A program made the position numbers and the translations under genes. From Candidatus Kerfeldbacteria bacterium (lineage in GTDB: Bacteria > Patescibacteriota > Patescibacteriia > SBBC01 > CAIJZX01), in the NCBI GenBank assembly GCA_016193315.1, contig JACPSJ010000006.1, forward strand, positions 1 through 63,041: 63,041 nt of DNA, written 5' to 3'. Numbering within the stretch: the stretch's first letter is position 1; the number at the start of each line of letters is the position of its first letter. This document shows positions 1,502 to 3,896 of the stretch, piece after piece. Below the pieces are notes generated by a model, which had not been told where the DNA came from, ran no database searches, and saw only the letters and a program-made list of their open reading frames with translations.

Positions 1502-1604
1502 GCGCTCCGCGCGGTAGATGCAAGATTTAAGTTAGAAGATTTAAGTTCGGATTCTTCAATCCTTAATCCTAAATCTTACTACTTACATCCACTGTGCGAA
1601 GCAC
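1502..1604 (-). repeat. 23S hairpin insertion module H1 (clamp GCGCTCCGCGC...GTGCGAAGCAC, AAGATTTAAG/CCTTAATCC arms)
   Basis: About 103-nt imperfect hairpin inside the 23S gene, absent from canonical 23S. It is near-identical to the copy at 1801-1903. Confidence 0.85.
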
Positions 1605-1800
1605 GGCAGGCCATATACCGAAGGTACGGCCACTGTTTTGCCGAGTTCCTAAACGAGGGTTCTCTCGTACGCCTTAGCAGATTTGCTGCCCACCCACCTG
1701 TGTCGGTTTACGGTACGGAGACGTCGTGACCTAACGGAATGACTTTTCTTGGCTCCCACCTCGTCCATATTGGCTTGCCCTTGCGGGTTCGCCGGCGGCT

Positions 1801-1903
1801 GCGCTCCGCGCAGCAGATGCAAGATTTAAGTTAGAAGATTTAAGTTCGGATTCTTCAATCCTTAATCCTAAATCTTACTACTTACATCCACTGTGCGAAG
1901 CAC
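1801..1903 (-). repeat. 23S hairpin insertion module H2, near-identical copy of H1 at a different 23S position
   Basis: Differs from 1502-1607 at only 2 positions (GCGGTAGATGC versus GCAGCAGATGC). The two copies are separated by 196 nt of genuine 23S sequence, including the AAACCGACACAGGTGG block. Confidence 0.85.
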
Positions 1904-2192
1904 GGCCACGCACATAACCAAAGTACGCATGGATCTGGTAGAAACGTCATCACTCCGATAATCACGCCGTCGGGCCGGAATATTAACCGGCTGTCCATCA
2001 GCTACGCCTTTCGGCCTCGCCTTAGGCCCGCCTCACCCTGGGTCGATTTGCGTTGCCCAGGAAACCTTAGGTTTACGGCGGACGGGGTTTTCACCCGTCG
2101 TTGTGCTACTTATACCTACATTCTCACTTCGGTGCGCTCCACGGTCGCTCGCGCTCCCGCTTCGGCGCACACCGAACGCTCCGCTACCACCA

Positions 2193-2357
2193 GCGCTACG
2201 CGCTGGAAATCCCAAATTCCAATTTCCAAATCCCAAGGAAAAGTCCAATTATTGAAACCCCGAGATCCTAACGCCTCGTTTTGGACATTGGAATTTCGGT
2301 CATTAGAATTTCCTTGTTTTTTGGTGCTTGGTACTTGGAATTTCCAGTGCGTAGCAC
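2193..2357 (-). repeat. 23S hairpin insertion module H3 (clamp GCGCTACGCGC...GTGCGTAGCAC, CCAAAT-type low-complexity arms)
   Basis: Arms CTGGAAATCCCAAATTCCAATTTCCAAATCCCAAGG and ...GGTACTTGGAATTTCCAG are mutually complementary. The clamp is the same as in H5. Confidence 0.8.
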
Positions 2358-3037
2358 TGGTCCTCAGCTTCGGTACGGCACTTAAGTCCCGATACATTTT
2401 CGGCGCCCCCGGGCTCGACCAGTGAGCTGTTACGCTTTCTTTAAAGGATGGCTGCTTCTAAGCCAACCTCCTGGTTGTTTGAGCCCCGAGACTGCCTTTG
2501 ATACACTGAGTGCCGATTTTGGGACCTTAGCTGGAGATCTGGGTTCTTCCCCTCACGTCCAATGGAGCTTAGCCCCCATGGACTGACTGCCGGACTGTTG
2601 GACCGCGGCATTCGGAGTTTGGTTGGAACGACTAGGCTTGCGCCACGCCGTCCCATTCAGTGCTCTACCTCCGCGGTTGATCATCCGACGCTAGCCCTAA
2701 AGCTATTTCGCGGAGAACCAGCTATCGCCGAGTTCGATTGGAATTTCTCCTCTACCCACAACTCATCCCAGAGCGTTGCACGACTCACGGGTTCGGACCT
2801 CCACGGCGTTTTACCGCCGCTTCATCCTGGTCATGGGTAGCTCACCCGGCTTCGGGTCTACTCCGGCCCACGGGCTCAGGCGTGAGCGGCGCGACCGACC
2901 AAAGGTCAGTCATCCGCTCACACAAGAGCAGTCGCCACTGAAGGCTCGCTTTCACTACGACTCCGGCCTACTCGGCCTTAGTCTACGTGGGACGCAGTAA
3001 CTCGTAGGTTCATTCTTCAATAGGCACGCCACCACCC

Positions 3038-3129
3038 GTGCTCCGCACGTGAAAATCCCAAAGTACAAATACCAAATTCCAAAATTGGGATTTGGAAATT
3101 GGTGCTTGGAATTTCCTTGTGCGAAGCAC
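3038..3129 (-). repeat. 23S hairpin insertion module H4 (clamp GTGCTCCGCAC...GTGCGAAGCAC, CCAAAT-type arms)
   Basis: GAAAATCCCAAAGTACAAATACCAAATTCCAAAATTGGGATTTGGAAATTGGTGCTTGGAATTTCC forms a hairpin bounded by the clamp. Confidence 0.75.
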
Positions 3130-3403
3130 AAGGCTATGACTGCTTGTAAGCATATGGTTTCAGATACTATTTCATTCCCCTCACCGGGGTGCTTTTCACC
3201 TTTCCCTCACGGTACTAGTTCACTATCGATCACCAATGATATTTAGCCTTGGAAGTCTAGTCCTCCCGGCTTCCCACAGGATTTCACGAGTCCCGTGGTA
3301 CTTGAGGACGATAACCAGTAAAGCTTTTGAGGGCCCATTTCGCCTACCGGGCTATCACCGTCTGTGGCTGGCCGTTCCAGGCCGATTCGACTATGGACTG
3401 GTC

Positions 3404-3495
3404 CCACCCTACCCCCCGACCCTCTCCCCTTGATCCCCGCTTCCCCCGATCAAGTCGGGGGCGGGGAAGGGGAGGGGGAGAAAGGGGGTGGGGTA
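3404..3495 (-). repeat. GC-rich hairpin expansion in the 23S (poly-C / poly-G arms)
   Basis: CCACCCTACCCCCCGACCCTCTCCCCT...CCCCGCTTCCCCCGATCAAGTCGGGGGCGGGG...AGGGGAGGGGGAGAAAGGGGGTGGGGTA is self-complementary and has no canonical 23S counterpart. Confidence 0.55.
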
Positions 3496-3724
3496 AAACA
3501 TGCGCTCTACTCCTAAAGTCACCGCGTATAGCTCGTCCTCGATAAACTCGGACTCGCACGCGGTCGCGTGTCCCGCGAAGCGGGACTAGACGCGACAAGC
3601 TTTAGACGTTACCATCTCGCAACACCATCATTGCGTGCGGGCTTGTGACCCTTGCTCCCTTGCGGAAGCAGCAATAAAGGTTTAGGCTCTTCCCGTTTCG
3701 CTCGCCACTACTAAGGGAATATCC

Positions 3725-3896
3725 GCGCTACGCGCTGGAAGCTCCAAATATCCAAATTCCAAATCCCAAACAAATCTCAAATTCCAATTCCCAAATCCCA
3801 AACGTCAATCATGAACGTTTCGAACTTTGGATTTTGGTCATTCGATATTGCTTGGTGCTTGGAAATTTGGTGCTTGGGATTTCCAGTGCGTAGCAC
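3725..3896 (-). repeat. 23S hairpin insertion module H5 (clamp GCGCTACGCGC...GTGCGTAGCAC, CCAAAT-type arms)
   Basis: CTGGAAGCTCCAAATATCCAAATTCCAAATCCCAAAC ... TTGGTGCTTGGAAATTTGGTGCTTGGGATTTCCAG; the clamp is identical to H3. Confidence 0.8.

What the first reader, a model, noticed from the sequence alone, without database searches (positions are those of the whole stretch)
1502..3896. Family of clamp-bounded hairpin modules colonising at least five positions of the 23S rRNA, two copies near-identical
Five insertions share one design: a 11-nt GC clamp (GYGCTMCGCRC ... GTGCGWAGCAC) closing a long arm-loop-arm hairpin made of low-complexity words.
- The insertions are at 1502-1604, 1801-1903, 2193-2357, 3038-3129 and 3725-3896.
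- Three use CCAAAT/ATTTGG words and two use AAGATTTAAG/CCTTAATCC words.
- The two AAGATT-type copies differ at only 2 of about 106 positions, yet sit in different 23S helices about 300 nt apart. That argues for recent copy-and-paste rather than ancient expansion segments.
- In the clamp, the non-Watson-Crick positions are mostly G-U pairs in the rRNA-sense (minus-strand) transcript, where they would be C-A mismatches in the antisense. One A-C mismatch remains in the rRNA sense. This favours a structure selected at the RNA level, for example an RNase III-type excision stem as in classical intervening sequences.

Together with the group I intron, these modules roughly double the length of the gene.
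Basis: seen in the sequence. Interest (0 to 1): 0.65.

Follow-up and report, generated by a model that had tools for sequence, protein, structure and literature searches.

The report
Mobile clamp-ended hairpin inserts in rRNA
Five short hairpin inserts with the same GC-rich ends sit in five helix tips of this groundwater bacterium's 23S rRNA gene, and they belong to a previously undescribed, widely spread family of insertion elements found almost only in rRNA genes, mainly of candidate-phyla-radiation (CPR) bacteria.

Summary
Five hairpin modules lie at exactly the stated coordinates in a minus-strand 23S rRNA gene. Each is closed by the same 11-bp clamp: 5' GUGCUWCGCAC and 3' GYGCGKAGCRC. The clamp occurs nowhere else in the 63-kb window.

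The modules cap H25, H45 and H63, and probably H58 and H12. Two copies differ at 2 of 103 positions.

The same design turned up in at least 42 rRNA loci of other genomes: in 16S, in 23S and in spacers next to them, almost always in rRNA sense, mostly in CPR bacteria. About 20 nt at each end is conserved; the interiors are AT-rich repeated words that differ between copies.

Each end is itself a palindrome, and the two ends also pair with each other. Covariation supports both pairings.

The closest 23S relative found (84% identity) lacks the modules. Only 17% of 118 genes with the same flank carry any long insert at H63. So these are sporadic, copy-and-paste elements, not ancient expansion segments.

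They look like ORF-less intervening sequences, but excision by RNase III could not be tested because no RNA data hold them. I found no Rfam family or paper describing the conserved ends.

The parts
1..4130 (-). Host gene: 23S rRNA, E. coli-equivalent positions about 1-2348. The 3' part is cut off by the window start.
   Evidence: Rfam LSU_rRNA_bacteria, 1448.7 bits. Pairwise alignment to E. coli rrlH.
1502..1604 (-). Module A, 103 nt. It replaces the body of helix 63 (E. coli 1707-1751). In RNA sense the 5' clamp GUGCUUCGCAC is at 1594-1604 and the 3' clamp GCGCGGAGCGC at 1502-1512. The arms are made of AAGAUU-type words.
   Evidence: (-45.5 kcal/mol, z -7.8). Junction contigs.
1801..1903 (-). 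Module B, 103 nt. It differs from A only at 1513/1812 and 1515/1814. It sits at a domain III hairpin tip, at about E. coli 1480-1491; H58 is a tentative assignment because domain III is much reduced here.
   Evidence: (-49.2 kcal/mol, z -9.4). A Logan contig spans 1690-1906.
2193..2357 (-). Module C, 165 nt, capping helix 45 (E. coli 1164-1185). Clamps are GUGCUACGCAC and GCGCGUAGCGC. The arms are made of CCAAAU/AUUUGG words.
   Evidence: (-79.4 kcal/mol, z -12.2).
3038..3129 (-). Module D, 92 nt, capping helix 25 (E. coli about 540). Clamps are GUGCUUCGCAC and GUGCGGAGCAC, the variant that pairs fully. Its first 21 nt are identical to modules in loci L083 and L078.
   Evidence: (-43.1 kcal/mol, z -8.1).
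3725..3896 (-). Module E, 172 nt, in the loop of the small domain I hairpin at E. coli 227/228. The helix number (H12) is from my recollection of the numbering. Its last 23 nt are 96% identical to Saccharibacteria modules in L014 and L086.
   Evidence: (-79.4 kcal/mol, z -9.5).
454..1327 (-). Context, not a family member: an 874-nt insertion exactly at E. coli 1931/1932, a group I intron site.
   Evidence: Rfam Intron_gpI at 676-1152, 45.7 bits (gathering score 50), E = 1.3e-9.

Best explanation
**What it is**
- The five modules are copies of a family of short, ORF-less palindromic hairpin elements that live in rRNA operons.
- Each copy replaces the tip of a peripheral rRNA helix.
- Each copy has three parts:
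  - a roughly 20-nt terminal unit at the 5' end (X-GUGC-nnn-GCAC-X');
  - AT-rich arms built from repeats of a 7-9-nt word;
  - a matching terminal unit at the 3' end (X-GYGC-n'n'n'-GCRC-X').

**How it folds**
- It is transcribed as part of the pre-rRNA.
- The two terminal units pair into a GC-rich clamp that stacks on the host helix, and the arms form a long imperfect duplex pointing away from the ribosome.

**What is shown**
- The anatomy.
- The strand-specific pairing and the covariation.
- The restriction to rRNA operons in rRNA sense.
- The sporadic occupancy of sites.
- Near-identical copies at different helices of one gene, which implies recent intragenic copying.
- End sequences shared between distant lineages.

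**What is inferred**
- The hairpins behave like classical intervening sequences. RNase III, a dimeric enzyme that would fit the two-fold symmetric clamp, would cut the duplex. The interior would be lost, and the rRNA would stay in pieces held together by the clamp stub.
- The mechanism of copying is unknown.
For: **In the window**
- Exact clamps far above chance, and only inside the 23S gene.
- Hairpin folds with z-scores of -8 to -12, stronger in rRNA sense.
- Insertion at helix tips H25, H45, H63 and two others.
- Two copies differ at 2 of 103 positions, with junctions supported in four DNA runs.
- Module interiors are 32-39% GC against 56% for the 23S core.

**In other genomes**
Forty-two of the 120 loci carry modules inside or next to 16S or 23S genes, all but one in rRNA sense, with the same low-complexity hairpin style.
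- Twenty-nine of those 42 are labelled CPR/Patescibacteria.
- A module in L072 is spanned by contigs from three independent studies.

**Pairing**
- The middle triplet covaries (UUC/GGA, UAC/GUA, GUA/UGC, GCA/UGC and others). 10 of 11 modules picked without regard to the triplet pair at all three positions.
- On 58 distinct end-sets the 17-bp long-range helix is 89.5% paired, with covariation score 0.476 against 0.146 in shuffles.

**Sporadic distribution**
- The nearest relative, L167 (83.8% identity), lacks modules A, B and C and the intron.
- At H63, 98 of 118 genes with the same 5' flank have a short hairpin and 20 have inserts of 96-798 nt.

**Fit to what is known**
- Classical IVSs occupy helices 9, 25 and 45, replace a tetraloop with a long stem-loop, are cut by RNase III and are sporadic (PMC4990558).
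- Short ORF-less insertions are common in CPR rRNA and were guessed to be IVSs (PMC11270868).
Against: **No RNA evidence**
- No RNA run holds the modules.
- The metatranscriptomes tried do not contain these organisms in recognisable form.
- So excision, fragmentation and any role of RNase III are untested.

**Points that do not fit a plain RNase III stem**
- Each clamp half is a perfect local palindrome. The 3' half keeps this through compensatory U-A to C-G changes that put an A-C mismatch into the long-range helix in 39 of 58 cases. A simple RNase III stem does not predict this; it hints at recognition of the ends at another level.
- E. coli RNase III is not known to need a specific sequence. 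From my own knowledge, G-C pairs near the cleavage site can inhibit it.

**Bias**
- The search patterns fixed most clamp positions, so part of the apparent conservation is ascertainment.
Confidence: 0.6

Rival explanations
1. Retained bacterial expansion segments. The hairpins are not removed. They stay in the mature ribosome as surface extensions, and the GC clamp only insulates their folding from the host helix.
For: - The sites coincide with the variable or expansion sites of large-subunit rRNA: H25, H45, H63 and H98.
- G-U-rich arms and covariation show selection for a stable RNA helix.
- Nothing in the data shows cleavage.
Against: - Occupancy is sporadic and the nearest relative lacks the modules.
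- Copies within one gene are near-identical.
- The same ends occur in transcribed spacers outside the mature rRNAs: upstream of 23S in L086 and L122, next to 16S in L063, L071 and L123.
- Four groundwater total-RNA runs with rRNA depth of about 1e5 contain no contig matching the conserved junction between clamp and arm at 80% likeness. This is weak evidence because the carriers may be absent from those samples.
Confidence: 0.3
2. A DNA-level palindromic transposable element, like a REPIN or other palindrome-ended element. A transposase that acts on single-stranded DNA hairpins (HUH/Y1 type: RAYT or IS200/IS605 TnpA), supplied in trans, would recognise the two terminal palindromes as hairpins. 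rRNA-sense orientation would follow from strand-specific insertion into the lagging-strand template. This rival concerns how the element moves, so it is compatible with excision at the RNA level.
For: - Each end is a local palindrome that extends 2-4 nt beyond the 11-mer (CTT..AAG, CCA..TGG). It is kept by compensatory changes: pair 26-34 is CG in 40, UA in 12, UG in 6 and CA in 0 of 58.
- Two inverted palindromes plus a spacer forming a long hairpin is the REPIN architecture (my own knowledge).
- Only about 21-23 nt at each end is conserved between organisms.
- Bacteroidota genomes carry dispersed inverted pairs of GGTGCGTAGCACC.
Against: - No copy lies outside the rRNA gene in 63 kb of this genome.
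- CPR hits are almost all in rRNA operons.
- There is no target-site duplication and no ORF-bearing version with the same ends in the loci examined.
- No transposase gene was looked for or found.
- As RNA, the local-hairpin form is 10-18 kcal/mol less stable than the long hairpin.
Confidence: 0.25
3. Ancient, vertically inherited expansion segments that look alike only because of convergent low-complexity growth.
For: Low-complexity repeated words are typical of expansion segments that grow by slippage.
Against: - The ends are identical at five different helices and in 16S, 23S and spacers of many lineages.
- Two copies differ at 2 of 103 positions.
- The relative L167 lacks them.
- 83% of genes with the same flank have a plain H63.
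Confidence: 0.04
4. Assembly artefact: a collapsed or chimeric repeat in a metagenome contig.
For: rRNA regions of MAGs are prone to misassembly. The Logan contigs are short and no single run covers all four junctions of the duplicated pair.
Against: - All four junctions of the duplicated pair are seen. Copy 2 is spanned end to end (1690-1906), and copy 1 is spanned by 1459-1545 plus 1516-1637.
- The same design recurs in dozens of independent assemblies.
- A family member in L072 is spanned by single contigs in three studies.
Confidence: 0.02

Closest known systems
Classical 23S rRNA intervening sequences (IVSs) of Salmonella, Yersinia, Campylobacter, Leptospira, Coxiella and Alphaproteobacteria
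   Same: - Short insertions of about 90-170 nt that replace the loop of peripheral helices, including the canonical helices 25 and 45.
- Complementary ends form a long stem-loop.
- Lower GC than the host.
- Sporadic distribution that suggests horizontal spread (PMC4990558).
   Different: - One sequence family with about 20 nt conserved, two-fold symmetric ends occupies many sites at once. It sits at five helices in this gene. Elsewhere it also occurs in 16S rRNA and in spacers, and across many lineages.
- Excision by RNase III is not shown here.
- There is no S23p/IVP ORF.
- Whether classical IVSs share these ends could not be checked with the collections available.
Uncharacterised short insertion sequences in CPR rRNA genes (Tsurumaki et al. 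2024, PMC11270868)
   Same: - Almost certainly the same objects: ORF-less, mostly under 200 bp, neither group I nor group II introns, frequent in 23S.
- They dominate in Saccharibacteria and sit at classical IVS sites.
   Different: That paper classes them only as probable IVSs. It does not mention a hairpin, a palindrome or conserved ends. The shared clamp, its covariation and the multi-copy behaviour are reported here.
REPINs and REP/BIME elements mobilised by RAYT transposases
   Same: Two palindromic units in inverted orientation, separated by a spacer, that fold into one long hairpin. Only the units are conserved (the architecture is from my own knowledge).
   Different: - REPINs are dispersed in intergenic DNA in tens to hundreds of copies next to a RAYT gene.
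- These modules are confined to rRNA operons in one orientation, and no RAYT gene is known for them.
Transcribed MITEs cut by RNase III, such as the Neisseria Correia elements
   Same: Short non-autonomous elements with inverted ends. Their transcripts form hairpins that RNase III can process (my own knowledge).
   Different: Correia elements have TA target duplications and lie in intergenic or mRNA regions. Here there is no target duplication and the host is rRNA.
Eukaryotic and Asgard archaeal rRNA expansion segments; mobile GC clusters and double-hairpin elements in fungal mitochondrial rRNA genes
   Same: - Same permissive helices (H25, H45, H63, H98).
- Low-complexity sequence.
- The mitochondrial elements are small mobile palindromes that land in variable regions of rRNA genes (my own knowledge; PMC4478555 for the GC clusters).
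   Different: - Expansion segments are retained and inherited vertically.
- The mitochondrial elements have unrelated sequences and also occupy intergenic DNA.

Membership tests
Bacterial rRNA intervening sequence (IVS) | Insertion replaces the terminal loop of a peripheral rRNA helix (classically H9, H25, H45). | tested here: met
   D lies in H25, C in H45 and A in H63. B and E lie in hairpin tips of domains III and I.
Bacterial rRNA intervening sequence (IVS) | Complementary termini form an extended stem-loop in the rRNA-sense transcript. | tested here: met
   Folds of -43 to -79 kcal/mol with z-scores of -7.8 to -12.2; the sense strand is more stable than the antisense. Covariation in the clamp.
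Bacterial rRNA intervening sequence (IVS) | Excised from the precursor by RNase III without religation, giving fragmented rRNA. | not testable with these tools
   No RNA run holds the modules, and the metatranscriptomes tried lack the carriers.
Bacterial rRNA intervening sequence (IVS) | Sporadic distribution among related organisms. | tested here: met
   L167 (83.8% identity) lacks the modules. 98 of 118 genes with the same flank have a plain H63.
Group I or group II intron | Matches the catalytic-intron covariance models. | tested here: not met
   An Rfam E-value scan of 1-4300 gives only weak generic miRNA-hairpin hits on two of the hairpin insertions (module D at 3036-3135 and the clamp-less hairpin at about 3400-3499). 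Intron_gpI matches only 676-1152.
REPIN / REP-BIME | Two inverted palindromic units plus a spacer forming a hairpin. | tested here: met
   Local palindromes at both ends are 89.3% paired. The long-range helix is 89.5% paired.
REPIN / REP-BIME | Many copies dispersed in intergenic DNA. | tested here: not met
   All clamp matches in the 63 kb lie in the 23S gene. Family members elsewhere are in rRNA operons.
REPIN / REP-BIME | A cognate RAYT (HUH/Y1) transposase gene in the genome. | not tested
   Only 63 kb of the genome is available, and no transposase search was run.
MITE | Terminal inverted repeats with a target-site duplication. | tested here: not met
   Inverted ends are present. The flanks are complementary stem halves (CUU/GAG, GCC/GGY, CCA/UGG), not direct repeats.
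rRNA expansion segment | Orthologous at a given site among relatives and retained in mature rRNA. | tested here: not met
   Orthology fails. Retention could not be tested.

The most novel reading that the evidence does not exclude
The modules are a distinct class of mobile element specialised for rRNA transcription units. The class would be defined by two roughly 20-nt two-fold symmetric terminal units, recognised by a dedicated and still unknown enzyme. The elements would copy themselves from helix tip to helix tip and between lineages. The route could be an RNA intermediate, or structure-directed insertion into DNA hairpins. These elements would then account for much of the unusual length, and probably the fragmentation, of CPR rRNAs.
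Probability: 0.3. Interest if true: 0.85.

Novelty: new variant of a known kind. Interest (0 to 1): 0.62.

Why it matters
**One lineage rather than unrelated oddities**
- CPR bacteria are known for long, interrupted rRNA genes, but the many short ORF-less insertions have been left uncharacterised.
- Many of them share one pair of conserved, symmetric ends. That links many of them as one evolving, mobile lineage.

**Practical uses**
- The conserved ends give a simple sequence handle for finding and masking these inserts. That matters for rRNA-based surveys, primers and phylogenies, which under-detect these organisms.

**Testable predictions**
- Defined RNA ends should lie in or next to the clamp, and the 23S rRNA should be in many pieces.
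- An enzyme should exist that recognises the ends.

**If the copying works on RNA or on DNA hairpins**
- It would be a new way for a selfish element to exploit the one transcript a reduced genome cannot lose.

Tried and rejected
**RNA evidence**
- Six read-laying runs were used. The five others on DNA or RNA runs gave no organism-specific RNA.

**Finding the source contig or the missing 3' end of the gene**
- The 413-aa GH1 ORF is not on record.
- The 132-aa PDDEXK protein is found only on short Logan contigs that stop before the rRNA.

**Database and pattern searches**
- Rfam has no family for the modules.
- A first double-gap pattern was rejected by the tool. Placing an H between the two gaps worked.
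- The viral contig scan gave two chance hits with no hairpin.
- No long ORF-bearing elements with the same ends exist in the fetched loci, only cross-pairs between separate modules.

**Hits judged not to belong to the family**
- Clamp hits outside rRNA in GC-rich genomes look like chance: interiors are 50-80% GC, there is no single hairpin, and 18 loci checked have no rRNA.
- Labels of carriers outside CPR are doubtful. The loci labelled Gammaproteobacteria have rRNA only 67-73% identical to E. coli, like the CPR loci.

**Structure**
- A cruciform with local hairpins as the equilibrium RNA fold was rejected on energy: it is 10-18 kcal/mol worse.

**Literature**
- No paper holds the clamp strings in an rRNA context.
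- Searches on IVSs, CPR and palindromic elements found only general background.
- Ralph and McClelland 1993 is not held.

**Not resolved**
- The taxon of the window was not determined.
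Full report
**Host gene.** The window begins inside a 23S rRNA gene on the minus strand. 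Rfam's bacterial LSU model matches 1-3616, and its 5.8S-like model matches 3962-4119. Alignment to E. coli rrlH places E. coli positions 1-2348 on window 4130-1. No 16S gene is in the window.

**The observation.** It holds exactly.
- GYGCTMCGCRC occurs 7 times against 0.34 expected. GTGCGWAGCAC occurs 5 times against 0.04 expected.
- All matches are at the ends of the five stated intervals, and none lies in the other 59 kb.
- In rRNA sense each module starts with GUGCUWCGCAC and ends with GYGCGKAGCRC.
- Each folds as one clamp-closed hairpin, -43 to -79 kcal/mol with z-scores of -7.8 to -12.2.
- The sense strand is more stable than the antisense strand by up to 18 kcal/mol. That is what G-U pairs predict.
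- Modules A and B differ at two adjacent-to-clamp positions out of 103.
- Logan contigs from four groundwater DNA runs support all four junctions of this duplicated pair.
- Module interiors are 32-39% GC; the 23S core is 56%.

**Sites.** I removed the modules and realigned the gene to E. coli.
- D caps helix 25.
- C caps helix 45.
- A replaces helix 63.
- E lies in the loop of the small hairpin at E. coli 227/228. H12 is my recollection of the numbering.
- B lies in a domain III hairpin tip near E. coli 1480-1491, probably H58. Domain III is much reduced here, so this is tentative.
- An 874-nt insertion sits exactly at E. coli 1931/1932 and carries a group I intron signal.

**The family beyond this gene.**
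- BLAST against E. coli 16S and 23S shows that 42 of the 120 loci carry the match inside an rRNA gene or right next to one, and all but one are in rRNA sense.
- In 23S the sites are E. coli 130-187, about 225, 270-290, H25, H45, H63, H68 (1854-1889) and H98 (2782-2809).
- In 16S the sites are 68-101 and about 440. Modules also lie in spacers just outside the 5' end of 23S and either end of 16S.
- The sequences have the same style as in the window: the clamp, then AT-rich arms made of a 7-9-nt word repeated three to five times, each module with its own word.
- Twenty-nine of the 42 loci are labelled CPR/Patescibacteria, ten of them Saccharibacteria.
- The few labels outside CPR are doubtful. 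The loci labelled Gammaproteobacteria have rRNA no closer to E. coli than CPR rRNA is.
- Most of the other hits are in GC-rich genomes, lack a single hairpin and look like chance. Eighteen loci checked hold no rRNA. The rest are a REP-like repeat in Bacteroidota (next point).
- Bacteroidota genomes carry dispersed inverted pairs of GGTGCGTAGCACC with non-hairpin interiors. This is a REP-like repeat of unclear relation.
- Viral contigs gave only two chance hits.

**Multi-copy behaviour recurs.**
- L102 has two identical 98-nt copies at about E. coli 223 and in H25.
- L122 has three close copies.
- L054, labelled Uhrbacteria, has two modules in its 16S.

**Anatomy of the ends.**
- A relaxed search found clamp variants in which the middle triplet changes on both sides together: UUC/GGA, UAC/GUA, GUA/UGC, AUA/UGU, UUU/AGA. 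In another variant the outer pairs change together: AUGC..GCAU with ACGC..GCGU.
- In an independent metagenome sample, modules were chosen only by the outer clamp positions and the arms. Ten of eleven paired at all three middle positions, against about 5% expected by chance.
- On 58 distinct end-sets the 17-bp long-range helix is 89.5% paired, with covariation score 0.476 against 0.146 in shuffles.
- Each end is also a palindrome on its own, X-GYGC-nnn-GCRC-X', and it often extends 2-4 nt across the boundary with the host (CTT..AAG, CCA..TGG).
- These local hairpins are 89.3% paired.
- The positions that tell the two pairings apart point both ways.
  - The middle triplet pairs only in the long-range helix.
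  - Yet the 3' unit keeps its own palindrome through U-A to C-G changes: CG 40, UA 12, UG 6, CA 0.
  - Those changes leave an A-C mismatch in the long-range helix in 39 of 58 cases.
- As RNA, the long hairpin is favoured by 10-18 kcal/mol.
- I therefore read the palindromy as two-fold symmetry of the clamp duplex. In most clamps a pyrimidine at position 2 of each strand faces a purine at position 10 of the other (U-G and C-A).
- That symmetry suggests recognition by a dimeric protein, or recognition of DNA hairpins during copying. This step is inference.
- Between organisms, only about 21-23 nt at each module end is conserved.

**Ancient or mobile?**
- A metagenome scan with the H62/H63 5' flank returned 120 genes.
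- In 98 of 118 of them, H63 is a short hairpin. In 20 it carries inserts of 96-798 nt.
- Four of those inserts belong to the clamp family, and five belong to a second family with ends of the same design (GCAUCACA-nnn-UGUGAUGC).
- The closest relative of the window's 23S, L167/L170 at 83.8% identity over 2643 nt, has no module at the A, B and C sites and no intron. At the D and E sites it has different or short sequence and no clamp module.
- With the near-identical intragenic copies, this argues for gain by copying rather than shared old expansions.
- No target-site duplication is visible, and no ORF-bearing version was seen.

**What could not be shown.**
- No RNA run holds the modules, and the metatranscriptomes I tried do not carry these organisms in recognisable form.
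- So I cannot say whether the hairpins are cut out or kept.
- Rfam has no matching family.
- The 2024 survey of CPR rRNA insertions lists short ORF-less insertions as probable IVSs and does not mention conserved ends.
- No paper in the library holds the clamp strings in this context.

**Verdict.** This is a real, non-chance feature and an IVS-like element family with conserved, symmetric ends. It is new as a described family, but it belongs to a known kind of element.

Noticed in passing
L165 6828-7102 (metagenome contig JACXTT010000251.1): ARAGORN predicts three tRNA genes in rRNA sense inside a 526-nt insertion at the same 23S H63 site. The insertion is bounded by inverted repeats, TGTCGAGGCAGAAAGAAGGAG and CTCCTTCTTTCTGTCTCGATA. 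Insertions with similar bounding repeats in L129 and L230 have no tRNA. tRNAs embedded in a 23S helix would imply that a break at H63 is tolerated.
   Followed up: partly
L130, L172, L180, L213, L220 (H63 site): A second family of hairpin inserts with the same design but different ends: the 5' end is GCAUCACA-nnn-UGUGAUGC and the 3' end is CAUCGCGC-nnn-GCGYGAUGC. Here too the 3' end is a transition-shifted, locally palindromic version of the 5' end.
   Followed up: partly
window 454-1327: An 874-nt insertion exactly at E. coli 23S position 1931/1932. Rfam Intron_gpI matches 676-1152 at 45.7 bits, just under the gathering score. A 72-aa ORF lies at 807-1025 on the minus strand.
   Followed up: partly
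window 3383-3493, 3507-3678, 2872-2938: Further 23S insertions without the clamp. One is a long hairpin whose 5' arm is almost pure pyrimidine (CCCCUCCCCUUCCCC) and whose 3' arm is almost pure purine.
   Followed up: no
window 4388-4414, 4818-4846, 5090-5117: Three copies of a unit CACTGG..CACGA..TCRTGR, each with an internal hairpin. They lie in the roughly 2.9-kb stretch upstream of the 23S 5' end, where I recognised no gene. Three matches against 0 expected.
   Followed up: no
window 1496-1628 versus 1795-1927: The similarity between modules A and B runs past the modules. About 20 of 30 flanking nt match, including an H62-like hairpin on the 5' side of B. Either the copied unit was larger than the module or the two target contexts resemble each other.
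   Followed up: partly
L077, L095, L121, L127, L044, L046, L118 (Paludibacteraceae); L073, L103, L105, L108, L125 (MAG USDV_maxbin.027): Dispersed inverted pairs of the mini-palindrome GGTGCGTAGCACC, 95-143 nt apart on several contigs, with interiors that do not form one hairpin. This looks like a REP/BIME-type repeat that happens to share the clamp core.
   Followed up: partly
L050 3487-3611 and L087 3258-3382; L033 1332-1457 and L119 519-644: Identical modules occur in MAGs labelled as different candidate phyla (Collierbacteria and Gottesmanbacteria) and in two Yanofskybacteria MAGs. This suggests a shared or mis-binned rRNA contig, or very recent transfer.
   Followed up: no
RNA run X6, contig laid at window 3126-3160: A groundwater metatranscriptome contig (depth 379) from another organism has an H25 tip reading CCUUGUGCGUUUUACGCACUGG. 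That is a single clamp-like palindrome with no arms. It could be a solo unit, a precursor or a footprint.
   Followed up: no
L018, L041, L102: Contigs of MAGs labelled Gammaproteobacteria carry rRNA only 67-73% identical to E. coli, as distant as CPR rRNA. The labels or the binning of these contigs look unreliable.
   Followed up: partly
L056 4760-4893 (Saprospiraceae MAG); L068 6623-6716 (Parcubacteria GW2011): Two clamp-ended, AT-rich, near-perfect hairpins with no rRNA detected nearby. L068 lies about 250 nt from a contig end and may be in an rRNA leader. L056 may be a true copy outside rRNA.
   Followed up: no
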